From assembly GCA_965243025.1 (NCBI GenBank), contig CBDETY010000003.1, positions 1,216,001 to 1,280,000 of the forward strand: DNA of 64,000 nucleotides, in the 5' to 3' direction. The stretch is from Candidatus Latescibacterota bacterium. GTDB taxonomy: Bacteria; Latescibacterota; UBA2968; UBA8231. The notes beneath the pieces were generated by a model, which was given only the letters and a program-made list of their open reading frames with translations, did no database searches and was not told the origin of the DNA. A program made the position numbers and the translations under genes. Of the stretch, positions 5,522 through 62,677 are shown one piece after another (positions within the stretch are counted from its first letter, which is position 1; every line of letters starts with the position of its first letter).

Positions 5522-5537
5522 CCTGCGGCCGGTCGTT

Positions 5538-7538: not shown

Positions 7539-7663
7539 GTCACAGGTCCGGCGTTGAACCCGGAGCGCGGATTGCGCTTGTTTGCGGCGATGGATGAATT
7601 GCAAATGAACAGTGAACCGGAGCGACGGCCAAGGAAGCCTGCCAAGAGGAGCCCGACAAGGAA

Positions 7664-8345: not shown

Positions 8346-9524
8346 ATGGCAAAGTACCGCACCGCCATCATCGCCTGCGGCGTCATCGGCCGCGTCCACA
8401 CCCGCGGCTGGCTCGGAGTTCCCGGCCGGCCTGTCGAGATCGGCGCCCTTGCCGACACCAACCCGGACGCTCTGCGGGAGTTCGGGGACTTCTTCGGCGT
8501 CGGCGGGGAGCACCGCTACTCCGACTACCGCGAGATGCTCGACAAGGAGAGGCCGGACTTCGTCGATGTCTGCTCCTGGCACCAGCAGCACGCCGAGATG
8601 GTCATCGCCGCGGCGGCGCGGCGCCCGAAGGCGATCCTCTGCCAGAAACCGATGGCCAGCGACCTCGGGGAGGCCGACCGCATGCTGATGGCCTGCAGGC
8701 GCAACTTCGTCAAGCTCGTCATCGCCTTTCAGCGGCCTCACCACGCTGTCTGGCTCAAGGCCCGCGATCTCCTCGCCGAGGGGGTGGTCGGAGAGATCAG
8801 GCGCATCGAGCTCGAGTGCGGGGGCAACATGCTCAACACCAACTCCCACAACATCCGCCTCGGCCTGTTTCTGATGGGAGACCCGCGGGTCGAGTGGGTC
8901 GTCGGTACGACCGAGCGCACCGCCGACACCTACGAACGGGGCCTGCCGGCGGAGGACTCCACCCTCGGGATGGCCGGGTGCAGCAACGGGGCGACGCTGC
9001 TGATCTCGGGCGGGGATATCGCCACCGGCGACCTCGGTCAGGGCTGCCGGGTGCTGGGCTCCGAAGGGATCATGGAGCTCTCGATCGGACGCAAACCGGA
9101 CAGCGAGATCCCTTCCGACGAGGGGATGTACTCGCCGGAAGGACCTTCGGCCCGCTACAACGCCGAGTTCGGAACCGGCCGCTACCTCAATGCCTCGACC
9201 GGCGGCTGGAAGGAAATCGAGGCGCCTTTTCACGACTCCTGGGCGCACCAGTGCCAGGAGGCGATCGACTGGGTGGAGGGCCGCATCGACGACCCGATCA
9301 GCGGCGGCGAACACGGCCGCGCCGTTCAGGAAGTGATGATGGCCCTGTTCGAATCGGCGCGGAAGCGGCAGCGCATCCGCATGCCGCTGCGGACCAAGCT
9401 CAACCCCCTGGCGCGCATGATCGAAAACGGCGACCTGCCGGTCGAATGGCCCGGGTACTCGGAGGTGCGCTCCGGCATCGTGCGCGGCGAGGCGATGTCG
9501 TGGCACGATTCGCAAGCCTCCTGA
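8346..9524 (+). CDS. Gfo/Idh/MocA family oxidoreductase
   Basis: IIACGVIG Rossmann motif, ILCQKPMA, AFQRPH. Confidence 0.9.
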   Translation: MAKYRTAIIACGVIGRVHTRGWLGVPGRPVEIGALADTNPDALREFGDFFGVGGEHRYSDYREMLDKERPDFVDVCSWHQQHAEMVIAAAARRPKAILCQKPMASDLGEADRMLMACRRNFVKLVIAFQRPHHAVWLKARDLLAEGVVGEIRRIELECGGNMLNTNSHNIRLGLFLMGDPRVEWVVGTTERTADTYERGLPAEDSTLGMAGCSNGATLLISGGDIATGDLGQGCRVLGSEGIMELSIGRKPDSEIPSDEGMYSPEGPSARYNAEFGTGRYLNASTGGWKEIEAPFHDSWAHQCQEAIDWVEGRIDDPISGGEHGRAVQEVMMALFESARKRQRIRMPLRTKLNPLARMIENGDLPVEWPGYSEVRSGIVRGEAMSWHDSQAS

Positions 9525-9582
9525 AGATGAGCTGCATGGTACCGGAGGAGACCGGGATGCCCCCCGGGGGAGCAGGGAACCG

Positions 9583-10419
9583 GTGAAGCTCGGTTTCTCC
9601 ACCTGGGCCATGCCCGACCTGCCGATCGACACCTCGGTCCGGGAGCTGGCCGCCCTCGGTTTTCAGGGGGTCGAGATCACCGTGATTCCGCCCTACTCGA
9701 CCGAGCTCGACACCCTCGGCGCCGCCGAGCGGCTGCGCATCCGCAGGCTCTACGACGACTGCGGGGTGGAGATGCCGGCGGTGGCCGGGCACGCATCCCT
9801 GCTGGCCGCGGGGGACGCCCACGCCGAGAACTGGCGGCGCCTGACCAAGGCCGCCGACCTCTGCGTCGATTTCGCCGGCCCGGATGGACCGCCGGCGCTG
9901 AACACCACCCTCGGCAGCAGCATCGACAGCTTCGAACAGCAGCGGGATCTGATCGTCGAGCGCACCGGCAGGCTGACGGAGTACTGCGCCGCCCGCGGGG
10001 TGGTGCTGGCGATCGAGCCCCATTCCGGGGACGGCCTGCGCGACCCGGAGGAGTGCGTCTGGCTGCTCGAGGCGGCGGCCAGCCCCTTCCTCCGGCTCAA
10101 CTTCGACATCAGCCACTTCAACATTCAGGGCCTGCCGGTCGAGCGGACGGTTCCTTTGCTGGCGCCGCTTTCGGTCCACACCCACGTCAAGGACGAGCGC
10201 GGCCGGATTCCCCGGTCCGACTTTCTGATTCCCGGGGAGGGGGAGTTCGACTACGTCGGGTACCTGAGGGAAATGCGGAAGGCGGGGTACGAGGGGTACA
10301 TCACTGCGGAGATCAGCATGCAGGTGCAGCGGCGTCCGGGTTACGATCCGCTTGCCGCCGCGGCCATGACCTACGACACCCTGGACGCCGCCTTTCGCGA
10401 GGCGGGCATCGAGCGCTGA
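9583..10419 (+). CDS. Sugar phosphate isomerase/epimerase (AP endonuclease 2 TIM barrel)
   Basis: GFQGVE, AIEPH, NFDISH, HTHVKD, PGEGEFDY, GYEGYITAE. Confidence 0.9.
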   Translation: MKLGFSTWAMPDLPIDTSVRELAALGFQGVEITVIPPYSTELDTLGAAERLRIRRLYDDCGVEMPAVAGHASLLAAGDAHAENWRRLTKAADLCVDFAGPDGPPALNTTLGSSIDSFEQQRDLIVERTGRLTEYCAARGVVLAIEPHSGDGLRDPEECVWLLEAAASPFLRLNFDISHFNIQGLPVERTVPLLAPLSVHTHVKDERGRIPRSDFLIPGEGEFDYVGYLREMRKAGYEGYITAEISMQVQRRPGYDPLAAAAMTYDTLDAAFREAGIER

Positions 10420-10551
10420 GGCCTGCCGTGCCTGCCTGATCCCGGGAGTCCACGGGGGTGCAGGCCCGTCGGGGCCGGGCCCTGCCTCACTCGACCGCAG
10501 GCCGGCGTCTCAACAAACCGGATGCCGTCATCCAGGTTGGGCGCCTGGATT

Positions 10552-11448
10552 TCAGCCGCCGATGATCATCCCCTTGGGGTCGTGGCGCAGCTTCAGGTGC
10601 TTGGGGTCCTCGTCTCTCTTACCGCTCCTGATCCGCTCCATGTAGCTGGCGTGGCGCCGGGGCATCTCCGACTTGCGCCAGCGCAGGAAGGCGCGTTCGC
10701 AGCGGTCGCGGTTGCCCGGTGAGGCCGCCGCGGGAACCTCGATCGTCCCGAAGGTCACCGCCGTTTCCCGCCGCGACAGGCTGACGATTTCTCCCTTGCT
10801 GACGATGAGGGTCACGCCGACGTTCGCCTCGACGATGGGCACGCCGTTCTCGCGCGCCCGCGCCAGCACCGCCTTGTCCTGTTCCTTCGAACGCGTGCCG
10901 AAGGAGGGAATCAGCAGGTACTGCGCCCCGTCGAGGACGGGAATGCGGGCGATGTCGGGGTTCCAGCGGTCGTTGCAGATCAGGAACCCGCAGCGCCCGA
11001 AAGGGGTGTTGCAGGCGCGGCTCTTCTTCCCGAGGCGGTTGAACCACCAGGACCGGTGGGAGCCCTCGGCGAGCTGCATCTTGTGATACCTGCCGCGGAT
11101 GCGGCCCGTCTGGTCCATGAACACCGCGCAGTTGAACACCTGCCTGCCGATGCGCTCGGCGAGCCCGAAGGCCAGGCAGATCTCCAGCTCCCGCGCCAGC
11201 TCGCGAAAGCGGCCGATCACAGGGCTGCGCATGGTGAGGGCCACCTCCTTCATCCGTTCCGCCGGCTGCTCCCCGGAAATGATCGGGGTGACGACGTACC
11301 CTTCGAGGACCCCTTCCGGGGCAACGGCCAGCTGGGCGCCGCCGGCCGCGGCCTTGCGGAACATCTCCTCCAGCCGGTCCGCGTTCTTCTGCAGGCCGAA
11401 TTTCTCGGGAACGAACGAAATGGCGGCCGCGGTCACTTCCTGAAACAT
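10552..11448 (-). CDS. Carbon-nitrogen hydrolase (nitrilase superfamily)
   Basis: Catalytic E-K-C: APEG, YHKMQL, LICNDR; start MFQEV with SD GAGGAGG. Confidence 0.9.
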   Translation of the reverse strand: MFQEVTAAAISFVPEKFGLQKNADRLEEMFRKAAAGGAQLAVAPEGVLEGYVVTPIISGEQPAERMKEVALTMRSPVIGRFRELARELEICLAFGLAERIGRQVFNCAVFMDQTGRIRGRYHKMQLAEGSHRSWWFNRLGKKSRACNTPFGRCGFLICNDRWNPDIARIPVLDGAQYLLIPSFGTRSKEQDKAVLARARENGVPIVEANVGVTLIVSKGEIVSLSRRETAVTFGTIEVPAAASPGNRDRCERAFLRWRKSEMPRRHASYMERIRSGKRDEDPKHLKLRHDPKGMIIGG

Positions 11449-11545
11449 GGAACCCTCCTCGAGGTTCGGCCGGCGCGGGAAAATAGCCCTCTTGCCGGCC
11501 GGCATTGGGGAAAGATGGCATACCGAACCCCGTCGGCGCCGGCGG

Positions 11546-12619
11546 TCAGGGGGCAGCGTAGCGCCCGACCGCGTCCATGTCGAGGGTCACCCCGAGCCCG
11601 GGGCCGTCGGGAACCTGCACGGAGCCGTCGACGACGGGGAATTCCTCCTGCACGCAGTCGTCCTGCTTGGCCCAGAAACCGACGAAATCGTGCGGTCGCG
11701 ACAGGCTGGGCCCCGCCGCGCAGACATGCAGTCCGAGGGCGTTGTTGACTCCCAGGCCGACGTACTGCGTCCAGCAGGGGAGGCCGAGTTCCTCCGCCAT
11801 GGCCGACAGCCGCACGGTCTCGACGGCCCCCGGCGCCCCGATGATGGCGTAATCAAGGGCCTCGGCCGACCACATGGTCAGCAGCCGGTCCGCCCCTGTG
11901 TGCTCGGCGACCGGAAAGCCGATCCGCTGCCGCAGGCGCCGCCATTCACTGAAGCTGTCGCCGTGAGCGCCGGTGACGATCGGCGACTCCAGGCAGTCGA
12001 GGCGGTGTCCTTCGAGCCGCCTGGCCATCTCTTCGGCCGCCCACACCTCCTCGAGGCGGCGGCGGATGTCGGGGCGCACATCCATCTCCGGCAGCTCGCG
12101 GTGAATGGCCTCGACGCGGTCGACGACGTAGTCGATGCGCTCCTGCAGGTGGGGGGTCCCGACGATGCACTTCATCTTGTAGGTGCGGAAGCCGCGCTCC
12201 CAGCCCCAGACCGCGTCCGCTGCGGTGTTCTGGACGGTCTTGTAGCCGGTACACAGGGTGACCGGAACCCGGTCCCTGACGGCGCCGCCGAGCAGCTCGG
12301 AGACCGGGCATCCCAGCACCTTGCCGCGGATGTCGAGGGCGGCGCACTCGTACGCCTCCGCCGCGAGCGCTCCCTGCGGCAGCCGGGACTGCCTGAGCGG
12401 GTCGAGCCCGATCCACCCCTCGGCCGCGGCAGCGACGGCGGCCCGGTCGACCCCGCGCAGGTCGAGCTCTCCCAGACCCTCCACGCCTTCGTCGCAGCGC
12501 ACGACGACCAGCAGGTTCGCGGTCTGGCGGTGGGCGGGCATGCCGTTCTCCTCGTCCGACCAGGCCCAGGGCCGGTCCGGTACATTCACTTCATGCAGGT
12601 CAACAGCGGCGATCTTCAC
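11546..12619 (-). CDS. Mandelate racemase/muconate lactonizing enzyme family protein
   Basis: EGLGE, ALDIRGK..G.PV..LLGG.VRDR, YKMK, CLESP, VPDGPGLG. Confidence 0.9.
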   Translation of the reverse strand: MKIAAVDLHEVNVPDRPWAWSDEENGMPAHRQTANLLVVVRCDEGVEGLGELDLRGVDRAAVAAAAEGWIGLDPLRQSRLPQGALAAEAYECAALDIRGKVLGCPVSELLGGAVRDRVPVTLCTGYKTVQNTAADAVWGWERGFRTYKMKCIVGTPHLQERIDYVVDRVEAIHRELPEMDVRPDIRRRLEEVWAAEEMARRLEGHRLDCLESPIVTGAHGDSFSEWRRLRQRIGFPVAEHTGADRLLTMWSAEALDYAIIGAPGAVETVRLSAMAEELGLPCWTQYVGLGVNNALGLHVCAAGPSLSRPHDFVGFWAKQDDCVQEEFPVVDGSVQVPDGPGLGVTLDMDAVGRYAAP

Positions 12620-12633
12620 GTTTACTCTCCTCG

Positions 12634-12809
12634 AGATCGGGGCACCAGAGGGAACGGTGAATGCCTGATCCCCAGTCCGGTGGTCCGGAAGGTGACAGCC
12701 CGCGAACGGACGACGCGGAGCCGTCGTGGATGCCCGCCCGCCTCCCCGACCGGGCAGACCGGGTTGGGCCGCCAGGGCCAGGGTACCGGCAGGTCCGGGG
12801 TTTTTTTGC
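12634..12809 (+). ncRNA. Putative structured RNA/leader (3' part nhaA-I-riboswitch-like), ending in a U-tract
   Basis: Successive hairpins (TCCGG-tggt-CCGGA; ACGACG-cggagc-CGTCGT; TGCCCG..CGGGCA), then GGGTTGGGCCGCCAG and T7; family resemblance is from memory only. Confidence 0.4.
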
Positions 12810-12821
12810 CGCCGGACCGGG

Positions 12822-13919
12822 TCATGCCGCGGCCACGGTGAGCCGGCGCAGTTTCCCGTCGTCGAGCTCGACCCCCCAGCCGGGTCCCTCGAAAGGGTAG
12901 AGATGGCTGGCCTCGGCGCGGATGCGCTCCTTCGCCGGCGACTCCATGTACAGGACCGGTCCCATGGGATCGCACGGGAGCGAGAGGTTGGGCAGCGTGA
13001 TCCCCACCGCCACCTGGGCGGCGGTGCCGATCGTCGATTCCTGGTCGGTGCCGATCAGGCAGCGGAACCCCGCCGCCTCGGCGACCGCGGCGATGCGCCG
13101 GATGTAGGTGGGCCCGGAGGAAACGCAGGCGATGTTGAAGGCGGTGCCGGCACCCAGCTCCACTGCTTCTCGCGCCTGTTCCAGCGTGTCGATGTGGAGA
13201 CTGACGGGCAGGTCCCAGCGCCTGGTGAACCCGGCGTTTACCCGCATCGAGCGGCTCGGATGCTCGAAGTGGAAGGGGTCGTGGTGGCGCAGGACCTCGG
13301 CGTAGCGCAGGGCCGTGTCCCAGGCGTCGAAACGCAGCGACATGTCGATCGACTTCAGGCGGATGCGGTCTCCGAAACGGCTTTTCATTTCGGTGAGGAA
13401 GCGGTCGTCGAGCTCGCTGTCGCCGGAGACGTAGTAGCGGAACAGGTGGTGGCCGAGGTCGACGATCCGCTGCAGGAACCCCGCGGACTGCTCGAAATCC
13501 GCGGCGACCTGCGTGCCGAAGATCGGGTAGCAGCAGTACAGCCTGTCGCGCAGCTTGCCCCCCATCAGCTGGAAGGCGGGAACGCTGCGGGCTTTGGCGT
13601 TGAGGTCGTAGAGGGCGATGTCGACGGCCGAGGCGAGGTGGGCGTCGCTGACCGTGCTGCCGAACCGCTGGGCCCGCATCAGCTCGTTTATTTCGGTGAT
13701 GCAGGTGGCGTCCCGTCCTCTGAGCAGCTCGTTGCAGCGCGCGGCGATGGCGGGGACGTCGTCGGCCCTGCTGTCCGAAGCCTCCCCCAGGCCGACCGGC
13801 CCGTCGTCGGTGTGCACCTTGAAGACCACGTGTCCGGAGATCCCTCCGGAGTAACCGGGCAGTGTCTGGTAGTAGCGGGGGGTTTCGATCTGGATGACTT
13901 CGACTTTGCGGATCTTCAC
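12822..13919 (-). CDS. Enolase-superfamily acid-sugar dehydratase, galactarate dehydratase-II-like (R-x-Y subgroup)
   Basis: CYPIF, FRYYV (RxY instead of KxK), KSID, VSLH, FNI, GTDQES.IGTAA, DPMGP.LY; GTG start VKIRK. Confidence 0.8.
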   Translation of the reverse strand: MKIRKVEVIQIETPRYYQTLPGYSGGISGHVVFKVHTDDGPVGLGEASDSRADDVPAIAARCNELLRGRDATCITEINELMRAQRFGSTVSDAHLASAVDIALYDLNAKARSVPAFQLMGGKLRDRLYCCYPIFGTQVAADFEQSAGFLQRIVDLGHHLFRYYVSGDSELDDRFLTEMKSRFGDRIRLKSIDMSLRFDAWDTALRYAEVLRHHDPFHFEHPSRSMRVNAGFTRRWDLPVSLHIDTLEQAREAVELGAGTAFNIACVSSGPTYIRRIAAVAEAAGFRCLIGTDQESTIGTAAQVAVGITLPNLSLPCDPMGPVLYMESPAKERIRAEASHLYPFEGPGWGVELDDGKLRRLTVAAA

Positions 13920-54109: not shown

Positions 54110-55161
54110 GTGCTGACTCCGCTCTTCGGGCGCCTGCGGCCCTTCGTCCGCTGCATCGGGACCCACGGACACGCGGTACTGGCGGGCGCCCTCCTGCTGA
54201 CGCTGGCCTGTACCCCGCTGGCCCTGCGCCTGGAGATCGACGCCGAGCTCTCCAACCTGCTGCCCCCGGATTACCCCACCATCCAGGCGCTCGAGCGCCT
54301 GCGCGAGACCATCGGCGGCGGGGAGGACGTCGCCGTTGCCGTATCGAGCCCGGATTTCGCCGCCAACCGCGCCTTCGCCGAGACCCTGATTGAGGCCGCC
54401 ATGAGGCTGCGCTCACCCGAAGGCGAGCCCTGCTTCAGCCGCTTCGAGTACCGCCGCGACACCGGGTTCCTCGAGCGCAACGCCCTCTACTTCGCGACCG
54501 GCGAAGAGCTCGATGCCCTGGAGGAGTATCTCGACGTGCGGCTGGCGCGGGCGCGGCTCGAATCCAGCCCCCTCTACTTCGACCTGGAGGAGGGTGGAAA
54601 GTCCGGGGAGGACTCCCTGGCGCGGCGCCTGGAGAGTACCTACGGCCGCCTCGTCCCCGGGGAGTACCCGGTTTCGCCGGACAGCACGGTGCTGGCGGTG
54701 AGGTTTCACCCCTCGGTGTCCCAGACCGACTTCGAGCAGATCCGGCAGGTTTACGCCGCCCTCGACTCGCTGGCCGCCGCCCTTGAGCCGGAAACCTTTC
54801 ACCCCGCCATGGAGGTCACCACCGCCGGCCGCCTGCTGCGGCGGCTGCACGAGATCAGGGCGATCTCCAGCGATGTCGGACGTTCGTTCGGGGCCGGGGT
54901 GCTCGCCGTCCTGGTTGCCGTGGTGCTCTACTTCTCCTGCAAGTCGTATGCGCCCTCGCCGGGGAGGTCCCGCGCCGCCAGCCTTGCCGCCATTGTCGGG
55001 CGAATGCCGGTATTGGCGGTCGTAATCGGTCTGCCCTTCCTGATGAGCCTGAGCTGGACCTTTGCGGTTACCTACCTGTGGCTGGGCGGGCTCAACCTGA
55101 TGACTTCGACACTGGCGCTGCTTCTGTTCGGGCTGGGAATCGACTACGGGATACACTTTTA
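54110..55161 (+). pseudogene. MMPL/RND family transporter, 5' part (interrupted by transposon)
   Basis: L.ID..LSNLLP.D, LLFGLGIDYGIHF, then a stop created at the insertion junction. Confidence 0.9.
55154..55161 (+). repeat. Target-site duplication, left copy (CACTTTTA)
   Basis: Identical 8-mer at 61166-61173. Confidence 0.95.
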
Positions 55162-55185
55162 GGAACTTATACCGGTGGGTTACGG
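55162..55185 (+). repeat. Terminal inverted repeat (left)
   Basis: GGAACTTATACCGGTGGGTTACGG. Confidence 0.95.
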
Positions 55186-55269
55186 AAGCTGATTTCTTAG
55201 CTTTCAGCTTCCCGGCGTGAGAGCCGAAAAAAAGGGCCTCAGGGAAACACTTTGAAGGGGAGATGTCCT

Positions 55270-55569
55270 ATGGCCGCTTACCAGACATTTCATCAGGCAT
55301 ATGATGAAGCCATTCTGAGAATCGGATGGAAACAGATACAGAATGGAGCAGCCGCATTTCAGGAGGTGGAATTAGAGATAGAGTCCGTATTAGTTTCAGA
55401 ACTACGATCTCATAAGAAGGCTCGTTTTATCGAGGTCAATAATGCGTTAATGATTCAGCTGACTGATGACGGGAAAAACGCCTTTATTGCATTGGCAATG
55501 GAGCGGAAACAATCAGCTGATCAGTACACAGAAAAGAGCTTGATGGAGGCTCTCTTACTCACCTCCTGA
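55270..55569 (+). CDS. Hypothetical passenger protein
   Basis: 99 aa, SD GGAG, lower GC. Confidence 0.65.
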   Translation: MAAYQTFHQAYDEAILRIGWKQIQNGAAAFQEVELEIESVLVSELRSHKKARFIEVNNALMIQLTDDGKNAFIALAMERKQSADQYTEKSLMEALLLTS

Positions 55570-55767
55570 TTCTTCCTCACCTTCCGTGCCGCTTCTGTCA
55601 CCTTGTATCCGCTCGATCTCTAACAGCTTCAAGCAGAGATCGATACGTTGATTAAGACAGTTACTCGGATCCGCGATGAACTTTTTCAGATCCATCTTTA
55701 GGCTGAGTACTGCCGCATCTGTGCTGAGTGACGGTTGTTCTTTTTTGCTGGTTTCCACTTGAATCAT
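55555..55767 (-). CDS. Hypothetical passenger protein
   Basis: 70 aa; AAGGAG immediately upstream of the ATG. Confidence 0.55.
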   Translation of the reverse strand: MIQVETSKKEQPSLSTDAAVLSLKMDLKKFIADPSNCLNQRIDLCLKLLEIERIQGDRSGTEGEEESGGE

Positions 55768-55781
55768 TCTCCTTGAGCGTG

Positions 55782-55816
55782 AAAAACGTCCCTCCGCGCA
55801 GGAGCAGAGGGGCGTT
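55782..55816 (-). terminator. Intrinsic terminator after passenger operon
   Basis: Minus strand AACGCCCCTC...GAGGGACGTT followed by a T-run. Confidence 0.65.
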
Positions 55817-55843
55817 GGTGTTTTCGATTCGCGTCAGGTTGAC

Positions 55844-56095
55844 CTATTTCAGGCGCCGGTAGAAGCCATCCTGAATCATCTCGATTTTACCCTGACGTGG
55901 AAGTTGTCGAGTCAAAACTTCTGAAAGAGAATTATATGGGTTCTCTGCTCTTGATTTTGTCTTTTTCAAAATCCTGTCAAACCGAACCCTGACCTTGAGA
56001 TCGGCAGCATAGAAAGTGCACCCGCAGGGTACGAAACTCACGATTTCATCCCATACGGCTTGTTTCCATGAGATTCTCTTTTCAGACTGGCTCAT
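55844..56095 (-). CDS. Small winged-helix protein (DpnI-C-terminal-like)
   Basis: SWKQAV...TF...L...NP.NSLS.VL.R.L...G.IEMI.DG.YR. Confidence 0.6.
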   Translation of the reverse strand: MSQSEKRISWKQAVWDEIVSFVPCGCTFYAADLKVRVRFDRILKKTKSRAENPYNSLSEVLTRQLPRQGKIEMIQDGFYRRLK

Positions 56096-56193
56096 CTTGC
56101 TCGGTTCCGCCTCCTTCCCGGTTCCGGTTCGGCGAATCCGCTCACCGGTCATGACCGGTCAGGGATCGCCAGCAAGCCGGTGGGGTTCCCCCT

Positions 56194-56433
56194 CTATGTA
56201 GATATGGATACGGAAAGGAATGATCCAGATCGGCTTGGATGTATTATCAATAAATTTGCTTCATGCGGTTTTCGATCTATGTGATGATTCCACTCATCGA
56301 TTCCGGACTTGATGGTGGCCGGGGTCAGGAGGCGCCAGCTTTTCTGGTCAGCCACCATCTCGCGGAGGGAATTGCTCTTCCTTGACTTGAAATCTTCCCC
56401 TCCTACCAGAATTTCAGCATAACAAAGGTCCAT
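56194..56433 (-). CDS. Hypothetical passenger protein
   Basis: 79-aa ORF in a tightly packed minus-strand run. Confidence 0.45.
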   Translation of the reverse strand: MDLCYAEILVGGEDFKSRKSNSLREMVADQKSWRLLTPATIKSGIDEWNHHIDRKPHEANLLIIHPSRSGSFLSVSIST

Positions 56434-56738
56434 CTAAGCCACTCGGATAGGGATTTTCGTCTAGAAAGACGTGGGTTAGGGGATAGTATGTTAGGTTCCT
56501 CGCATAGCCTACGGATAAGACTCATGTCTTTTGTGATCGTCTCATTGAGGAGGTGTAATGATTCCCTAGGCATACCCGATCCATTATCTTCCGAAGCTAG
56601 GCCAATGGTGTTTCTAAGGTGAGATTGGATGTCCTCAGTTGACATGCCTCTGCTCTTAAAGTCTCTGGCACACATTAGAGCAACGATAATTCTAAGAGAG
56701 TATATGTGTGCCAGTAGCTGATGTTCTTGACATGACAT
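56403..56738 (-). CDS. Hypothetical passenger protein
   Basis: 111 aa, SD GAGG, 3 bp from upstream ORF. Confidence 0.55.
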   Translation of the reverse strand: MSCQEHQLLAHIYSLRIIVALMCARDFKSRGMSTEDIQSHLRNTIGLASEDNGSGMPRESLHLLNETITKDMSLIRRLCEEPNILSPNPRLSRRKSLSEWLRWTFVMLKFW

Positions 56739-56741
56739 ATA

Positions 56742-56996
56742 TCATACCTCTGGTATGTTAAATTCATCCACTATATTCTGTACTGGAATGTCTCTGTTAA
56801 TACACCACTCAACGGCCGATTGCGTTGTGAAAAGAACTTTCCAACTATTCGTCCTATCTTGAGTCAAATAATAGATGTTTCCTCTGGATCGGTACCGAAA
56901 TAGCTTTTCGAGTTTGGTGGAACATGTGTCTATGGGTTCCGCATTCTCGGTGTTAAAAGCCATCTGTCCGTCAATAGTCTCTCCGATTATTTTCAT
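56742..56996 (-). CDS. Hypothetical passenger protein
   Basis: 84 aa, SD GGGAG; E.LFR..S.G..YL pattern. Confidence 0.65.
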   Translation of the reverse strand: MKIIGETIDGQMAFNTENAEPIDTCSTKLEKLFRYRSRGNIYYLTQDRTNSWKVLFTTQSAVEWCINRDIPVQNIVDEFNIPEV

Positions 56997-57005
56997 AATA
57001 CTCCC

Positions 57006-57287
57006 TCAGTCTCGTAGATCCGGGACCACAGCGGCGACTCTCGCCGCTATTCCAGTCTGACGGCCCAGAGCGGATAGCTCGCTCAGGGCCTTCTGGCGTT
57101 TCTGCTCCGCCCGATTGCAAGACATGGCTACCTGATGGATTTCTTCATGGTATGGACGCGAGAGGAGATGGGCGAACTCCGGCTTGCGGTTAGTGTCATG
57201 CACAATCCACGACCGCGCTCTTCCAGTTACCCGGTAGCTAACCTGAATCGCCATCAGCCGGTCCTTTCGATCCTTCTGAGGTGTCAT
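57006..57287 (-). CDS. Hypothetical passenger protein
   Basis: Up to 93 aa; likely internal start MAIQVSY. Confidence 0.5.
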   Translation of the reverse strand: MTPQKDRKDRLMAIQVSYRVTGRARSWIVHDTNRKPEFAHLLSRPYHEEIHQVAMSCNRAEQKRQKALSELSALGRQTGIAARVAAVVPDLRD

Positions 57288-57441
57288 CTGGCCGATTGGG
57301 CTTACGCAGCGACGGATCTGGCGGGTTGGCGGTGGCGAAGATGGCCTGAGCCAGCTCCTCCGGGGTGCAGTCGATCTTCAGGCGCCACTCAGGGCGGCCC
57401 TTCTGCTTGGCGCTGTCGTCTGAATCTGCGCGGTCAGTCAT
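57238..57441 (-). CDS. Small IS1595-associated ORF
   Basis: GRPE..LKID.TPEELA.AIF motif, recalled from small ORFs near IS1595 transposases (unverified). Confidence 0.55.
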   Translation of the reverse strand: MTDRADSDDSAKQKGRPEWRLKIDCTPEELAQAIFATANPPDPSLRKPNRPDDTSEGSKGPADGDSG

Positions 57442-57462
57442 GCTCGGAAATTACCCCCCGGC

Positions 57463-58293
57463 TCATTCTGGGTCAATTACGAAAGCGTCGTAGGAGACGG
57501 GCAGGCTGACCCGCTGGCCTACGGCCTGAAGATGCTCTATTCCATTAGAAGGTTCTTCTGTGAATCCGAGCGGCTCCCACATGGCTGCGGAGTCCCGGAC
57601 CATGATGACGGCCCGCCCGTCAGGGGCCAACATCATGTGGATCTTGTCCACGTCCTTTGCGCTCAGGAGTCCGTCATGGCCGTGCAACACGAGGATCTGG
57701 TCGTACGGCTCCGTGGGATACCAGTGACCGAATGAGCAGTTGTGCAGCCGATCTGCGAATAACGGGTTCCTGCTGGCGCACACGCGGAGCATGTTTTCCG
57801 ACAGGTCGATTCCGCAGTAGTTCTGGGGTCGGATGTCCGGGCAGTTTCTCAGTAACCAGCCGGTGCCGCAGCCTACGTCGAGGATGCGCTGGCCGGTCAG
57901 ATCGCCCAACAGGGCCAGGAGGGGCTCGCCTCCGTGGTCATTAACCATTGCCTGATCGTACTGGTGGGCAACCTCATCATATGGCGTCTCGTAGTGCATC
58001 CGGGCGCGATTCAGGATGGTGGTTTTGGCTGGCGGCCATCCCATCGTCCAGTAGTAGTGCCCGTTCAGCGTCAGGCTGCGGTAGTACTGGCGATTACCGT
58101 ACCTGCGCCGGTAGCCGTAGGTCTGGACCATCTCCACGACTTCCTCGAACTCGTCCTCCGGCCAATTCACCCTGACGGTGTAGAAATGAGGTTTTTCGGG
58201 TATCGTCTTGGCGAATCGGAACGAGGCCGCGCCTACCAGCTCGGCCACCCGGAAAAGGCGCTCATGACTAATGGTGGGATCATTATCGAACAT
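57463..58293 (-). CDS. Class I SAM-dependent methyltransferase with N-terminal unknown domain
   Basis: YD..A..YD, ILDVGCGTG, GIDLS.NML, L.PDGR; N-terminal FAKT.P..PH.Y.VR...YWTMG...LNRA. Confidence 0.85.
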   Translation of the reverse strand: MFDNDPTISHERLFRVAELVGAASFRFAKTIPEKPHFYTVRVNWPEDEFEEVVEMVQTYGYRRRYGNRQYYRSLTLNGHYYWTMGWPPAKTTILNRARMHYETPYDEVAHQYDQAMVNDHGGEPLLALLGDLTGQRILDVGCGTGWLLRNCPDIRPQNYCGIDLSENMLRVCASRNPLFADRLHNCSFGHWYPTEPYDQILVLHGHDGLLSAKDVDKIHMMLAPDGRAVIMVRDSAAMWEPLGFTEEPSNGIEHLQAVGQRVSLPVSYDAFVIDPE

Positions 58294-58318
58294 GGCTGAT
58301 TCCTTGATAGGGGAAGGA

Positions 58319-58900
58319 CTACCCGGCCAGCAGAATGCCCAGATAACTGCCGTATCGGATCAGTCCATCGGGGTCCGTGATGACGATCTTGCCATCGGAA
58401 ATTTCACACGTCGGGGCCGTCTGGAAGGACGAGGCGAACAGCTCGCCCCAGGCACCAAACTCCATCCAGTTGGAGCCGCCTACATCGTCGTACCCGGTTA
58501 CGTCGACAATGTCCTCTGAGACCCTGCTGCGTTCCAGATAGACGCCGAGGATATTGTCTTCCGAGAAGTTTTCGTTCGTGATGGTCCAGGATCGGGCCCC
58601 TCGACTGTTCCCGGAACCCGCGTGAAGTCCTACTTCGATGAAGGCGAACAGATTCCCAAAGGTAGTGGTAGTACTGCCGGTATCGACCGCTACGGTGTCG
58701 TAAACCGTGACGGTGTTTGTGTCTGGATTATCGCCTTGGTAGACGACAGTTTCACCGGTGATATTGATCACCACACAGGCGGTGGTATCGGCGGCTTGTT
58801 CGGCGGTGGTCTTGGGAGAGGTGGCCGGGCCCATCGGGCCCTCGGGGCCCTGACAGGCCGACAGCAGGTAGGCGGCGAGCAGGATGGCTGAATACTGCAT
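58319..58900 (-). CDS. Lipoprotein with short collagen-like motif
   Basis: SD AAGGAG, lipobox LSAC, GPEGPMGPA, Thr-rich linker. Confidence 0.75.
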   Translation of the reverse strand: MQYSAILLAAYLLSACQGPEGPMGPATSPKTTAEQAADTTACVVINITGETVVYQGDNPDTNTVTVYDTVAVDTGSTTTTFGNLFAFIEVGLHAGSGNSRGARSWTITNENFSEDNILGVYLERSRVSEDIVDVTGYDDVGGSNWMEFGAWGELFASSFQTAPTCEISDGKIVITDPDGLIRYGSYLGILLAG

Positions 58901-59189
58901 GGTCCCTGTCTCCTTGAGGCGGGTGGGTTGACCCCGGCTCCGCTGTGGGGCCGGGCCTTGTCAAGCCTACACGCCAAGAGACAGCGGGAAGGATCCTGCT
59001 ATTCGCCAGCTGAGAGGTAGCTAGCCCCCCAGCTCGGATGGTACGGCTGTTGTATTCACAGGAGACCCGACATCAGGGACCTCCTGACGCATAGACTTGA
59101 CGGGTGGTAATTTGCAGCCTGAGCGGCTGGCCATCAAGTCAATTCTGCGCTAATTGCTTATTCCAGCTTGTGTTAGGTGGTTGATCTCG

Positions 59190-60356
59190 TCAGATCGCGA
59201 TCCCCCGCTCGCCCCCGGTCAGCTCGTCATATCGAAGACGCTTTCCGGTCATACCTCGGGCGAGAACCACCATCATCTCAATCGTGTCCTTGTCGCGGAT
59301 GTTATGACGGCCGGCGAACTCGTTCAGGTATCGCTGCAGGTGCTTGAATGACATACGGAAGAAAGTACCTCCATAAGCCCGTTTCAGCACCGCCCAGTAT
59401 CCCTCGGCGGAGTTGGTATGCGCCATGCCCCGGACGTATTCCCCGACACCGTGATTCACGGACTCATGGTTGGGGAGCCCCTTGTAGCCGTGGTGCTGAT
59501 CGGTGTACTTCTTGGCATTCGGCTTGACGTTCGCCATCACCTGAGCCTGAAGCGTGATGGCCGTCACGTCAGGCACCGTTACGGCCCGGATTTCATTGGT
59601 TTTCCGATCCACGATTGCGACGACCGCCTGTTTGCCCACCGTGCCGCGCCCTTTCCGTAGCTTCTTGCGAGCGTGCTTGTTGGGCTCCTTGCCGCCGAAG
59701 TAGCTCTCGTCAATTTCCACCGGACCTTCCATCAGCTCGCCGGTGTTTTTCACGAATGCTTCCCGGATGCGGTGCATCAGGAACCAGGCACTCTTGTACG
59801 TGATTCCAAGGTGACGGCGTACCTGTATGGCGCTCACACCTCGCAGATGAGTGGTCACCAGAAACAGGCCGATTGCCCACTTCTGGTACCCCAACTTGGA
59901 GCCCTCCATCACGGTACCCTTTTTCACCGAGAAAAACTGATGACAGTCCCGACACCGATACGGCATTTTCGGGTGCTTCGAAACCGAGGTGCTGACCGAT
60001 CCGCAGGCCGGACAATACCGCTGGTCATTTGGCCACCTCTGCTCCTCGAACCATTTCTCCGCCGCCTTGTCGTCAGGGAACATGCGCATCAGTTCAGGGA
60101 GAGTAATCCCCTTGCGGTAGGCCCGTCCGGGTCCCTTGGAGCTATAGTTTGTCGGAAACTTGCTCATATCGGTATATGCTCGCTCATCGTCGTAATAAAT
60201 ATCAGCCATTATCCGCTTTTTGTCAAGGTCTAAGTCGTTGTTTTCAAAGAGTTTAGGCTTAAGGAGACGGTGAGGGATCGCCCTGGTGGGCTCTGGCGGT
60301 ACACCCGGTGAATTGGGCTTGACAACTCGTTTCTTAGTCCTGAACTTAGTACGCAT
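59190..60356 (-). CDS. IS1595-family DDE transposase
   Basis: Zn ribbon CPACG..YRCRDC, HTH (KSAWFLMHRIR), VEIDESYFGG, YTDQ, HTNSAEGYW, S.KHL.RY..EF..R.N; start either 60356 (strong SD) or 60167. Confidence 0.95.
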   Translation of the reverse strand: MRTKFRTKKRVVKPNSPGVPPEPTRAIPHRLLKPKLFENNDLDLDKKRIMADIYYDDERAYTDMSKFPTNYSSKGPGRAYRKGITLPELMRMFPDDKAAEKWFEEQRWPNDQRYCPACGSVSTSVSKHPKMPYRCRDCHQFFSVKKGTVMEGSKLGYQKWAIGLFLVTTHLRGVSAIQVRRHLGITYKSAWFLMHRIREAFVKNTGELMEGPVEIDESYFGGKEPNKHARKKLRKGRGTVGKQAVVAIVDRKTNEIRAVTVPDVTAITLQAQVMANVKPNAKKYTDQHHGYKGLPNHESVNHGVGEYVRGMAHTNSAEGYWAVLKRAYGGTFFRMSFKHLQRYLNEFAGRHNIRDKDTIEMMVVLARGMTGKRLRYDELTGGERGIAI

Positions 60357-60457
60357 AACGCCCTCCTTACTGTAGGTGGGTGGAGGTCAGCAAAAAGCTC
60401 ATCCCGCGAATCGAGAGTGGCTTTCTGCTGACTGTGGATGCGAGAAGTAACGGAATC

Positions 60458-60497
60458 AGCCGATCTGGTCGTCGTCAGCGACCTGATCGGCTTTTTT
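60458..60497 (+). terminator. Intrinsic terminator with no obvious upstream + strand CDS
   Basis: AGCCGATC-t-GGTCG loop CGACC-t-GATCGGCT followed by TTTTT. Confidence 0.75.
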
Positions 60498-60589
60498 CGT
60501 GCTTCTCGTCGAAATTCACATACAATATACATATCCCGCTGGGTTTCCGCAGGGGGCGGGATACTTCCACATATGACTGGGTACTGAAA

Positions 60590-61063
60590 ATGGATGCTCT
60601 CAAACCCTTTAGCGATGTCCTCGTTTCGCTACTGCCCGAATCCGATTCAGGCAAAATAATCTGGCTGATTGTTTTCGGTCTTTTCGTCTTGATTGTAACT
60701 GGACGTCTGAAATTGGAATGGATTGGACAAGGGATTCTATGGATCGTACAAGTCGTTATACGGATTGCAAAACACTTTTGGAGCCAAGCACAGAACAGGA
60801 AGGAACGAGAACGGATCAGGCGTCAACAGGCACGGGATAGTAGGGAACAACAACGGATCAAGCGTCAATATTGTTCAATTGGAAGACATTTCTTCCAAGG
60901 GATAGAGGGGATTAGGACTGTGACTTTTACTTGTAGATTCTGTCGGATAGAAAAGAAATTTGGCGAAATCGAATTTGATGAAGATTTTGAGTGGTGTTCC
61001 TATGGCCTTGAGGGGTCCGGGTGGGGTACATTGAAAGACCATGATGCCACCAAGGGTAGCTGA
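60590..61063 (+). CDS. Membrane-anchored passenger protein with C-x4-H...CxxC motif
   Basis: TM IIWLIVFGLFVLIV, charged coiled segment, CSIGRH...CRFC. Confidence 0.65.
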   Translation: MDALKPFSDVLVSLLPESDSGKIIWLIVFGLFVLIVTGRLKLEWIGQGILWIVQVVIRIAKHFWSQAQNRKERERIRRQQARDSREQQRIKRQYCSIGRHFFQGIEGIRTVTFTCRFCRIEKKFGEIEFDEDFEWCSYGLEGSGWGTLKDHDATKGS

Positions 61064-61141
61064 ATACCTGTGGGCTGTTAATCCGGAAAATCGACCATCT
61101 GAGCAGGGTAACATCAAAGCCAAAAGCTAAGAGTCATTCAC

Positions 61142-61165
61142 CCGTAACCCTCCGGTATAAGTTCC
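61142..61165 (-). repeat. Terminal inverted repeat (right)
   Basis: Reverse complement GGAACTTATACCGGAGGGTTACGG. Confidence 0.95.
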
Positions 61166-61173
61166 CACTTTTA
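61166..61173 (+). repeat. Target-site duplication, right copy (CACTTTTA)
   Basis: Identical to 55154-55161. Confidence 0.95.
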
Positions 61174-62677
61174 CGCGCGCTATGCCGAGGAGCGGGGCAA
61201 TGGCCTGGACGTGCCGGCCGCCATCGAGGTCACCTTTGCGAGCACGGGGCAGGCGATAGCGGTCGGGGCCATGACCACCGCGGGGGGCCTCGCGGTCCTG
61301 GTGGTGGGGGACTTCAGGGGATTCAGCCACTTCGGGCTGATTGCCGCGGTCGGAATCGGGTTCGCCCTGCTGGCGATGATCGTCGTGATGCCGGCGCTGG
61401 TGGCGGTCTGCGAGCAGCTGGGGCTGTTGTCCCTTGGCCTCCGCGCCCGGGACCAGGCCCGGGTACCGGGAAACAGCCGCTTTCCCCTGGCCGGCCTGGT
61501 GACCGCGGCGGCCCTCGTCTCGGTCCTGGTTGGAATCCTGGCGTTTCCGAGAACCGAGTTCGAGTACCGGTTCGGCGAGCTGGAGCCGGTATACGGCGAA
61601 TACAACAAACGGCGGGACAGGGTTCGGCAGGTATTCCCGCCCGCAGGGACACGCAACCAGGCCTACATCATCGCCGATTCCCCTGCGCAGGCGGCCGCCG
61701 CCGCCGCGGCCGTGAGGGAGCGCGCGGCGGCCGACACCCTGACACCGACCATCGCCGGGGTCGCCACCCTGCAGGACCGCTTTCCCGTGGAGGCCGCCGA
61801 ACAGCAGCGGAAACTGCGGCGCATCGCCGCCATCAGGGAGCGGCTCGAGGAGCCGTTGCTGCGGGCCGCCGGCGGTGAGCAGCTGCGCCGCCTGCGCGTC
61901 GCCGCCCAGACCCGGACCCCGCTGTCCTCCGACGACCTTCCCGCCTCCCTGAAGGACCCCTTTCTGACCAGGACCGGGGAGATCGGACACTTCGTGCGCA
62001 TCTCCCCGTCCGTGGGACTTTCGGACGGCCGCAACTCCATCGCCTTTCTCGAGGATGCCGGGACGGTGCGGAGCGCCGACGGAACGGTCTTCCACGCCGG
62101 CTCCCCCGCCCTCGCTGCGGCCGCGATCCTCCGGCGCGTGCGCGGCGAGTCCCCCTGGATGGTGGCCGCCTCGGCGATCCTGGTGACGCTGCTGATGTGG
62201 CTGAACTTCACCTCGCTGCGCTGGGCGGCGGTCGCCCTTTTGCCCCTTCTGGTAGGCGTCCTGTGGATGGTGACCGCCATGGCCGTTTTCGGCCTGCGCC
62301 TGAACTTCTACAACATGATCGTGCTGCCGGCGGTCCTCGGGATCGGCAACGACGCCGGGGCCCATCTCGCCCACCGCTACCGGGAGGAAGGCCCCGGCTC
62401 CATCCGGCGGGTGCTCGCCTCCACGGGGGAACACATCAGCGTCGGCTCGCTGACGACGGCGATCGCCTTTGCCGGCCCCCTGCTGAGCTTCCACCCCGGT
62501 CTTCGAACCATCGGAGTGCTGGCGATTACCGGCCTGGCGGCGACCTGGCTGGCCGCCCTCGTGGTGACCCCGGCGGTCCTGCAGTTCCTGTCCGACCGCG
62601 GGCAGTTGCCCGGGTTCAACCCGCGGAGGGAACCCGGTTCGGACGGCTCCCCGGACGCGGCCGGGAATCCCGCCTGA
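61166..62677 (+). pseudogene. MMPL/RND family transporter, 3' part
   Basis: HFYARYAEER...TG.AI..GA.TT, FRGFSHFG, LGIGNDAG.H..HRY.E, SLTT.I.F. Confidence 0.9.

What the first reader, a model, noticed from the sequence alone, without database searches (positions are those of the whole stretch)
55154..61173. 6-kb IS1595 cargo transposon freshly inserted in an MMPL gene
Seen: one transposase, near-perfect 24-bp TIRs, an exact 8-bp TSD, about 10 passenger ORFs on both sides of the transposase, and both host-gene halves still open and rejoinable in frame (DYGIHF|YARYAEER), so the insertion is recent. Knowledge: IS1595 elements are usually about 1 kb, make 8-bp TSDs, and some carry passengers. Inference: this is an unusually large single-transposase element with phage-like small ORFs, a methyltransferase, a lipoprotein and RNA-like segments, possibly a family of gene-capturing elements with variable cargo.
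Basis: partly seen in the sequence, partly recalled or inferred. Interest (0 to 1): 0.85.

Follow-up and report, generated by a model that had tools for sequence, protein, structure and literature searches.

The report
Six-kilobase IS1595 cargo-carrying insertion sequence
This is a real jumping gene, recently moved, that carries about five kilobases of extra genes and has split a membrane-transporter gene in an uncultured bacterium; elements of this kind are already known, so it is a well-documented new example and not a new kind of element.

Summary
Window 55162-61165 is a 6004-bp element. It has 24-bp terminal inverted repeats (23 of 24 complementary), an exact 8-bp target duplication (CACTTTTA) and one intact IS1595-type transposase. 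It sits inside an MMPL transporter gene.

Three new results show that it moves as a unit and moved recently:
- A second, 100% identical copy lies elsewhere in the genome with its own 8-bp duplication, AAAAAATA.
- A same-genus genome has the MMPL gene uninterrupted, with one copy of the target.
- Contigs of a run from another study join the two flanks exactly, skipping the element plus one duplication copy.

It is a transporter IS (tIS) of the IS1595 family, which is a known kind. Its relatives, with about 50% identical transposases in other phyla, are 2.5-4.1 kb. They mostly carry restriction-modification genes between the transposase and a conserved, unannotated protein of about 55 aa, which this element also has.

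Supported cargo here is a class I SAM methyltransferase, a lipoprotein and a 157-aa membrane ORF. The six small low-GC ORFs have no detectable relatives. The labels "phage-like" and "RNA-like" are not supported.

Verdict: new member of a known kind, of modest interest.

The parts
55154..55161 (.). left copy of the 8-bp target-site duplication (CACTTTTA)
   Evidence: present once in the uninterrupted orthologue of G001 and at the joint in run X6 ('both' = 8)
55162..55185 (+). left terminal inverted repeat (24 bp)
   Evidence: I2, 96% complementary; identical at the second copy
55195..55210 (+). left subterminal repeat, pairs with 61117-61132
   Evidence: I11, 16 nt, 88%
55252..55569 (+). orfA, 105 aa, orphan ORF in the low-GC left arm
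   Evidence: no Pfam, NCBIfam or PADLOC hit; no viral relative
55555..57287 (-). run of small same-strand ORFs: orfB 55555-55767, orfC 55844-56152, orfD 56194-56433, orfE 56403-56738, orfF 56742-56996, orfG 57006-57287; all unverified
   Evidence: no family hits; orfE has no homologue; orfC and orfE have no viral relative; five ORFs of 70 aa or more on one strand of the arm 55186-57237, P = 0.005 against 1000 Markov simulations, but the longest ORF alone is not unusual, P = 0.41
57238..57441 (-). conserved small protein (67 aa) with motifs G-R-P and T-P-E..A.A.F; a core gene of this IS1595 clade
   Evidence: 213 cluster representatives at E <= 0.001; lies next to clade transposases or their remnants
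57463..58293 (-). class I SAM-dependent methyltransferase (276 aa) with a conserved N-terminal domain of about 100 aa and unknown function
58319..58900 (-). putative lipoprotein (193 aa; signal peptide ending L-S-A-C, read by eye)
   Evidence: for the sequence; 58% and 42% identical homologues beside IS1595 transposase genes or fragments in G001; no family
58901..59189 (-). intergenic region between the transposase and lipoprotein genes, with a modest folding signal
   Evidence: z = -3.46; 1 of 200 shuffles as stable; lies within the 77%-identical stretch shared with G001
59190..60356 (-). IS1595-family DDE transposase (388 aa), zinc ribbon plus DDE domain, all clade-invariant residues kept
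60590..61063 (+). orfR: a 157-aa ORF from the internal Met (the frame is open from 60380), hydrophobic N-part and Cys-rich C-part by eye; right-hand cargo bay
   Evidence: ORF length P = 0.001 against simulations; no homologue; G001 carries other genes at this position
61117..61132 (-). right subterminal repeat
   Evidence: I11; inside the 48 bp conserved with G001's right end
61142..61165 (-). right terminal inverted repeat (24 bp)
61166..61173 (.). right copy of the target-site duplication
54110..55162 (+). N-terminal half of the interrupted MMPL-family transporter gene (350 aa, stop created at the junction)
61166..62677 (+). C-terminal half of the interrupted MMPL-family transporter gene
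   Evidence: (PF03176 4.8e-21)

Best explanation
Window 55162-61165 is an autonomous transporter insertion sequence (tIS) of the IS1595 family. A single zinc-ribbon/DDE transposase recognises imperfect terminal inverted repeats of about 50 bp. It inserts the whole 6004-bp unit, passenger genes included, into AT-rich 8-bp targets, which are duplicated on insertion. The element has done this at least twice in this genome in the recent past. One insertion truncates an MMPL-family membrane transporter gene; the other is intergenic. The element belongs to a clade that spans several phyla and has a two-gene core: the transposase and a protein of about 55 aa with a G-R-P motif. These two genes bracket a variable cargo bay. 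In this member the bay holds a lipoprotein and a SAM methyltransferase. Two further low-GC segments sit just inside each end. Shown: the structure, the two copies, the empty sites, the intact catalytic motifs and the variable cargo in relatives. Inferred: the transposition chemistry (copy-out/paste-in through a circle, as reported for the IS1595-family element MTnSag1), a role for the small protein in transposition, and what the cargo does.
For: TIR and TSD. Transposase domains. The invariant D, D and E positions, the Lys/Arg after the E and the CxxC pairs are all kept in an alignment with 7 relatives. A second copy at G000:C3:666353-672356 is 100% identical over 6004 bp and has a different exact 8-bp TSD. 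Only these two copies carry this TIR in the genome. Empty site in same-genus G001: the left and right flank matches overlap by exactly 8 bp and the ORF reads through. Empty site in run X6 of another study: two contigs join 55152/55153 to 61165/61166, skipping 6012 bases. One of them has 1 mismatch and 1 gap over 353 nt, with 8 letters fitting either side. G001 has no element at the second site. Ten relatives are delimited by a TIR starting GGG(A/G)ATTATA or GGNNCTTATA plus an exact 8-bp TSD: 2451, 2458, 2699, 2780, 2977, 3006, 3316, 3588, 3994 and 4137 bp. Of the 12 TSDs, 11 have 5 or more A/T. The literature describes the tIS concept and IS1595-family elements with 25-bp TIRs, 8-bp repeats and a circular intermediate (passages of PMC5704250; PMC11891212; PMC3129680).
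Against: No circle junction or excision product was seen; only contigs could be laid, and they cannot show rare forms. In runs X1, X4 and X5 the flank contigs reach only 28 and 30 nt into the element. That is under the tool's 31-nt rule for bridging, so the junctions rest on the genome assembly itself, and these runs may be its own source. No expression data exist. The transposase has not been compared with ISfinder, so an identical catalogued element cannot be excluded. In relatives the small protein gene lies 30-1000 bp from the distal end and the transposase gene starts 70-110 bp from the proximal end. Here 2.07 kb and about 0.65 kb of low-GC DNA lie in those places, and nothing explains how they got there.
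Confidence: 0.9

Rival explanations
1. Nested or chimeric origin. An inner element of about 3.3 kb, of the usual clade type (transposase, cargo, small protein), became embedded in, or recombined with, a low-GC non-autonomous cassette carrying compatible ends. The 6-kb unit would then be a fusion that now moves on the outer ends.
For: There are sharp GC steps near 57000-57240 and 60500: arms 0.42-0.51 against core 0.55-0.61, and GC3 of 0.44-0.53 against 0.68-0.76. In most delimited relatives the small protein gene and the transposase start lie close to the ends.
Against: No inner TIR-like motif sits at the GC steps; the only interior hit, with 3 mismatches, is at 55927, far from them. No inner inverted repeat is listed. 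G001's relative shares the outermost 48 bp of the right end (83%) next to the same transposase lineage, with other genes in the bay, so the outer end belongs to this transposase lineage. Relatives L054 and L056 also have 0.55-1.0 kb beyond the small protein gene.
Confidence: 0.2
2. The 6-kb unit is not self-mobile. It would be a segmental duplication, or an island moved by another system such as phage, an integrase or conjugation.
For: Most cargo ORFs have no known function. 20 other IS1595-type transposase genes in the genome could in principle act in trans.
Against: Both copies end at exactly the same bases and each has its own perfect 8-bp duplication. No integrase or relaxase family hit was found in any ORF. 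The other transposases are only 36-46% identical and none sits near this TIR. There is no match to phages and only transposase-gene matches to plasmids.
Confidence: 0.04
3. Assembly artefact: a repeat placed wrongly into the MMPL gene.
For: The element is a separate repeat contig in the de Bruijn contigs of X1, X4 and X5.
Against: A misplaced repeat would not create an exact 8-bp duplication of a target that is single in G001 and in X6. The flank contigs run 28-30 nt into the element ends.
Confidence: 0.02

Closest known systems
tISCpe8 and MTnSag1 (IS1595-family elements with passenger genes). Known to me here only through passages of the review PMC5704250; the primary papers are not held.
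   Same: An IS1595-type DDE transposase as the only recombinase, terminal inverted repeats of about 25 bp, 8-bp direct repeats, and passenger genes inside the ends. A circular form was reported for MTnSag1.
   Different: By that passage, those elements are small and mobilisable. As I recall (not stated in that passage), they carry a lincosamide-resistance gene and an oriT. This one is 6.0 kb, has no resistance gene and no recognisable transfer function, and its host is an uncultured Latescibacterota bacterium. Its transposase is less than 40% identical to any plasmid-borne IS1595 transposase in PLSDB.
ISNwi1-with-passengers and ISNha5 subgroups of the IS1595 family (ISfinder; Siguier, Gagnevin & Chandler 2009). 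Recalled, not seen here.
   Same: Ends beginning GG...TTAT, a D-D-E triad with a Lys seven residues after the Glu, an E-x3-R motif, 8-bp duplications and passenger genes. The recalled size ranges are 1.75-4.75 kb and 3.45-7.9 kb.
   Different: Membership could not be tested without ISfinder sequences. I do not recall the conserved small second gene and the three separate cargo positions being described.
Transposon-like restriction-modification units (Furuta et al. 2010, PMC2853133; passages read)
   Same: Units with inverted repeats and an 8-bp target duplication, shown by empty-site comparison. One unit (26-bp repeats) has a COG3677 transposase-like gene. That paper cites Siguier 2009 for RM or solitary M genes in IS elements. 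Six relatives of the present element carry DNA methylase, with or without restriction enzyme genes, in the same bay.
   Different: The present element's methyltransferase resembles small-molecule class I enzymes, not DNA methylases, and no nuclease was recognised. That paper's supplementary tables, which I could not see, may list IS1595-type cases.

Membership tests
IS1595 family | DDE transposase with the ISXO2-like/IS1595 catalytic domain | tested here: met
   PF12762 3.4e-33 (cut-off 27 bits, score 115); NF033547 3.8e-51
IS1595 family | N-terminal zinc-ribbon domain | tested here: met
   PF12760 9.3e-08, 32.4 bits against a cut-off of 25.4; both CxxC pairs are invariant in the alignment
IS1595 family | terminal inverted repeats and an 8-bp target duplication | tested here: met
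   24-bp TIR matching at 23 of 24; exact 8-bp TSD at both copies
ISNwi1 subgroup (definition recalled from ISfinder) | end consensus ggnnatTAT; D-D-E-K plus E-x3-R motifs | tested here: inconclusive
   The ends read GGAACTTAT, with one departure from the recalled consensus. Relatives read GGGAATTAT. E then K at +7 and E-x3-R are present. The definition itself comes from memory, not from a call.
ISNwi1 subgroup | transposase clusters with ISNwi1 in a tree | not testable with these tools
   No ISfinder sequences are available
transporter IS (tIS) | genes unrelated to transposition lie inside the IS ends and move with it | tested here: met
   Two 100% identical 6004-bp copies, each with its own TSD; the definition is from passages of PMC11891212 and PMC3129680
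composite transposon | two IS copies flanking the cargo | tested here: not met
   One transposase gene; no inner ends
integrative mobilisable element (as tISCpe8/MTnSag1) | oriT or a mobilisation function | not testable with these tools
   No relaxase family hit; an oriT cannot be recognised from sequence here
restriction-modification cargo unit (as in clade relatives) | DNA methyltransferase plus nuclease in the bay | tested here: not met
   The methyltransferase matches Methyltransf_23/25 and small-molecule enzymes in the PDB, not N6_N4_Mtase; there is no nuclease hit

The most novel reading that the evidence does not exclude
The element is the largest member seen here of an undescribed IS1595 sub-clade. 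The clade's core would be two genes: the transposase, and a protein of about 55 aa with a G-R-P motif that has no family and no name. Together they bracket a cargo bay. The clade would work as a cross-phylum shuttle (Latescibacterota, Acidobacteriota, Dadabacteria, Proteobacteria) for restriction-modification and toxin-antitoxin modules. The small protein would be an end-binding or regulatory partner of the transposase.
Probability: 0.3. Interest if true: 0.5.

Novelty: new member of a known kind. Interest (0 to 1): 0.35.

Why it matters
It gives a fully documented case of recent transposition in an uncultured phylum that has almost no mobile-element biology on record: both ends, two copies, and empty sites in a sister genome and in an independent run. 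It shows that single-transposase IS elements can move 5 kb of cargo there. The wider pattern is more useful than the element itself. A transposase clade shared across phyla repeatedly carries restriction-modification genes next to a conserved, unannotated small protein. That offers a testable candidate for an accessory transposition factor and a route by which defence genes spread. The disrupted MMPL transporter is a natural knockout that is polymorphic between populations.

Tried and rejected
The "phage-like" label was rejected.
- For the passenger ORFs, PHROGs gave only the generic methyltransferase hit (phrog_4752, 1.1e-08) and hits at E 0.005-0.009 for orfA and orfR.
- The element has no DNA match in the phage collection.
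- The TIR pattern has no match in viral contigs.
- None of 4 ORFs tried (orfA, orfC, orfE, orfR) has a relative in viral contigs.

The "RNA-like" label was rejected.
- Rfam at E <= 1 gave three matches at 17-22 bits, against gathering scores of 37-52.
- There is no tRNA or tmRNA.
- One intergenic stretch folds at z = -3.46, which is not enough to name an RNA.

A defence-system reading of this element's own cargo was rejected. PADLOC hit only the generic methyltransferase domain (mad2, 1e-08).

Searches for more copies found little.
- The TIR pattern in metagenome contigs gave one locus (L044). It shares only the 23-bp end, at a contig edge.
- The plasmid collection matched only 60-90 nt inside the transposase gene.

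Homologue searches for orfE and orfR found nothing. These were length-restricted, word-seeded searches, so they are weak evidence of absence.

Promoter and terminator scans gave counts equal to shuffles.

No RNA holder was listed among the sequencing runs. No circle junction was listed (contigs only). Contig depths of the element were higher than those of its flanks in X1, X4 and X5. I do not use them as a copy number, because the tool warns against that.

The literature searches found no open-access paper that describes the small conserved protein or an IS1595 clade specialised in RM cargo. Siguier 2009, the ISfinder reviews and the tISCpe8 and MTnSag1 papers are not held. Supplements were not consulted, so prior description cannot be excluded.


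Full report
THE OBSERVATION

The repeat finder reports arms 55162-55185 and 61142-61165, 24 nt and 96% complementary. A second subterminal pair lies at 55195-55210 / 61117-61132, so the two ends are related over about 50 bp. Reading the junctions shows CACTTTTA directly outside each arm, at 55154-55161 and 61166-61173. The element is therefore 6004 bp. GC falls from about 0.70 in the flanks to 0.42-0.61 inside.

The only transposase is 59190-60356 on the minus strand. It matches PF12762 at 3.4e-33, the IS1595 zinc ribbon PF12760 at 9.3e-08, and NCBIfam NF033547 at 3.8e-51. Aligned with seven relatives, it keeps every invariant residue: the two CxxC pairs, the D of V-E-x-D-E, the D of T-D, the E of H-T-N-x-x-E, the K-R after that E, and E-F-x-G-R.

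The left host ORF, 54110-55162, stops at a TAG built from the last two duplicated bases and the first base of the repeat. The right half reads open from 61166 to 62677 and matches MMPL (PF03176, 4.8e-21), starting at profile position 224 of 333.

IS IT MOBILE, AND IS THE INSERTION RECENT?

The window is G000:C3:1216001-1280000. The same 6004 bp occur again at C3:666353-672356, 100% identical. There they are flanked by a different exact octamer, AAAAAATA. A genome-wide search for the TIR found only these four ends. A search for a TIR plus exact 8-bp duplication around all 23 IS1595-type transposase hits found only these two elements.

In G001, a same-genus genome, the left and right flanks of the MMPL site match one continuous stretch. 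G001's contig length equals that of a record titled Candidatus Latescibacterota MAG. The two matches overlap by exactly 8 bp. The gene there reads ...GIDYGIHFYARYAEERG... without interruption.

Contigs of four public runs were laid on the region. In X1, X4 and X5 the element is a separate contig, 55160-61165. The flank contigs end 28 and 30 nt inside it, as expected for a repeat in a k-mer graph, but that is short of the tool's 31-nt rule for bridging. These runs may also be the assembly's own source.

In X6, from a different study, two contigs join 55152/55153 to 61165/61166. They skip 6012 bases, which is the element plus one duplication copy. One contig differs from the window by one mismatch and one gap over 353 nt, and eight letters fit either side of the joint. 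The element interior has almost no cover in that run. That is an empty site in a nearly identical strain.

The second insertion lies 20 nt upstream of an ORF, in intergenic DNA. G001 has no element there, although its spacer differs by about 90 bp, so that site is unoccupied but not cleanly comparable. Taken together, the unit has transposed as a whole at least twice, and recently enough to be polymorphic between populations.

WHAT IT CARRIES

In the orientation of the transposase, the order is:
- right end;
- a low-GC bay of about 0.65 kb with orfR on the opposite strand (157 aa from its internal Met at 60590);
- the transposase;
- a 289-bp spacer;
- a lipoprotein-like ORF (58319-58900);
- a methyltransferase (57463-58293);
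- a 67-aa ORF (57238-57441);
- a low-GC arm of 2.07 kb with six or seven small ORFs;
- left end.

The methyltransferase matches Methyltransf_23 and Methyltransf_25. It matches small-molecule and sugar N-methyltransferases in the PDB only over residues of about 100-250. Its first 100 residues or so form a domain conserved across 49 aligned homologues, with invariant H36, Y81, W82, M84 and N95, and with no family or structure match. It lacks a DNA-methylase signature by Pfam.

The lipoprotein has no family. It has 58% and 42% identical homologues in G001, both next to an IS1595 transposase gene or fragment.

orfR is far longer than chance allows in its 600-nt arm (P = 0.001), but it has no homologue. 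The left-arm ORFs have no hit in Pfam, NCBIfam, PHROGs (at E below 0.005) or PADLOC. They have no paralogue in the genome beyond the second copy. orfE found not even itself in the protein collection, so it was probably never called as a gene. Five ORFs of 70 aa or more on one strand is unusual (P = 0.005), but the longest one alone is not (P = 0.41).

I therefore count four supported passenger genes and six or seven unverified ones. No Rfam family or tRNA is present.

THE RELATIVES

A scan of one genome per species found ten loci with transposases 48-75% identical. Searches with the small ORF found more, both in those genomes and in 168 genomes of the phylum. Ten relatives are cleanly delimited by inverted repeats beginning GGG(A/G)ATTATA or GGNNCTTATA, plus an exact 8-bp duplication. 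Their sizes are 2451, 2458, 2699, 2780, 2977, 3006, 3316, 3588, 3994 and 4137 bp. Counting the two sites here, 11 of 12 duplicated octamers have five or more A/T.

Their cargo differs from element to element, but it is often restriction-modification:
- N6_N4 methylase plus ThaI-like nuclease (L039);
- methylase fused to HNH (L041);
- Mom-like protein plus PvuII-like nuclease (L040);
- N6_N4 methylase (L080);
- D12 methylase (L081);
- N6 methylase plus EcoRI-like nuclease (L083).

Cargo ORFs of four others (L036, L054, L056, L058) and part of L084 gave no family hit.

The same-genus relative in G001 shares the methyltransferase N-part (86% aa), the lipoprotein (58%), the transposase (75%) and the last 48 bp of the right end (83% nt). 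In the right bay, however, it carries a Panacea antitoxin-domain ORF and a 168-aa ORF instead of orfR. Its methyltransferase is cut by an rve-type transposase gene, and its left end was not found. G002 has the methyltransferase alone, at 82% aa.

THE CONSERVED SMALL PROTEIN

The 67-aa ORF aligns with ORFs in the relatives, with invariant G-R-P, T-P-E, A, A and F. A profile of five members finds 213 cluster representatives at E <= 0.001 among 1.84 billion, mostly 45-80 aa. Ten of them, looked up, carry no name, and Pfam has no model for it. In G000 it occurs only in the two element copies.

Association with the transposase was scored in three sets of loci:
- Ten loci found through the transposase. 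The small ORF lies downstream on the same strand in six (one of these has an internal stop), is weak in one, and is absent in three.
- Five further loci found through the small ORF in those same genomes. Three lie inside a delimited element with the transposase, one is ambiguous at a contig edge, and one has no transposase within 6 kb.
- Twelve loci from the phylum sample outside G000. Four have a full transposase (one with the small ORF on the opposite strand), three have a transposase remnant, and five have none within 6 kb.

The first two sets are biased by how they were found. The third is the fairer one, and it gives 7 of 12. I read this as a second core gene of the clade, with decayed solo copies. 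Its role in transposition is inference only.

HOW IT MOST LIKELY WORKS, AND THE RIVALS

The best reading is an autonomous IS1595-family tIS. A review passage states that related elements (MTnSag1, tISCpe8) have 25-bp repeats and 8-bp duplications, that a circular form exists, and that excision may be replicative (PMC5704250). Two identical copies here fit that, but no circle was seen.

The main rival concerns origin, not identity. The sharp GC steps, and the unusual distance of the transposase and the small gene from the ends, suggest that the two low-GC arms were added to an ordinary element of about 3.3 kb, perhaps by fusion with a cassette. No inner ends exist at the steps. G001 shows that the outer right end belongs to this transposase lineage, with a different bay content. 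Two relatives also carry DNA beyond the small gene. I therefore favour cargo gain at three positions over a single nesting event.

Segmental duplication, movement by another system and misassembly are each contradicted by the two independent exact duplications and by the empty sites.

COMPARISON WITH WHAT IS KNOWN

Transporter IS elements, and IS1595 members with passenger genes, are established (passages in PMC11891212 and PMC3129680; both cite Siguier 2009, which I could not read). Furuta et al. 2010 describe restriction-modification units with inverted repeats and 8-bp duplications, one with a COG3677 transposase-like gene, and cite Siguier 2009 for such genes within IS elements (PMC2853133 passages).

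From memory, ISfinder lists ISNwi1-type elements with passengers up to 4.75 kb and ISNha5-type elements up to 7.9 kb. The ends and motifs here fit the recalled ISNwi1 definition with one departure. That comparison rests on recall, and subgroup membership could not be tested. I found no description of the small conserved protein in six literature searches, but the key papers are not in the library.

VERDICT

This is a real, active-looking element, well delimited and recently moved. It is a new member of a known kind. The element itself is of modest interest. The clade-level pattern (two-gene core, restriction-modification cargo, spread across phyla) is the part worth a follow-up.

Noticed in passing
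G000:C3, about 0.85-1.03, 1.30-1.34, 1.94-1.99, 4.23-4.29 and 6.01-6.06 Mb (outside the window): Besides the two element copies, the search gave 21 more IS1595-type transposase hits, about 20 of them genes and three of those partial; the 18 longest were compared. They fall into three subfamilies (72-99% aa identity within, 36-60% between). They are arranged B-A-B or C-A-C in five lower-GC islands. The repeat units around them are about 1.9-2.4 kb at 82-95% nt identity. No terminal inverted repeats or target duplications were found. Unexplained.
   Followed up: partly
L029 (G001:C11:343000-362000) 8631-13661: The same-genus relative of the element carries a SocA/Panacea antitoxin-domain ORF plus a 168-aa ORF where this element has orfR. 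Its methyltransferase is interrupted by an rve-type transposase gene, and its left end is missing.
   Followed up: partly
L039 1757-3285; L040 8936-10115; L041 9560-10834; L080 3966-6018; L081 4229-6026; L083 6268-7597: Six relatives of the clade, from several phyla, carry DNA methylases, with or without restriction endonuclease-like genes (ThaI, PvuII, EcoRI, HNH, Mom-like), in the bay between the transposase and the small conserved ORF.
   Followed up: partly
L078, L079, L085, L086, L087: These are solo copies of the small conserved ORF with no IS1595 transposase within 6 kb. They are either remnants of decayed elements or an independent life of this gene.
   Followed up: no
window 58901-59189 (-): The spacer between the transposase and the lipoprotein gene folds more stably than shuffles (z = -3.46; 1 of 200 as stable). 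It lies within the 77%-identical stretch shared with G001. No Rfam match.
   Followed up: no
window 60785-60868: A 42-nt tandem duplication (79% identical) lies inside orfR and encodes a repeated Arg/Gln/Glu-rich stretch.
   Followed up: no
L084 (G092:C15:143300-155400) 5126-7576: A 2451-bp clade member in which the small conserved ORF lies on the strand opposite to the transposase.
   Followed up: no
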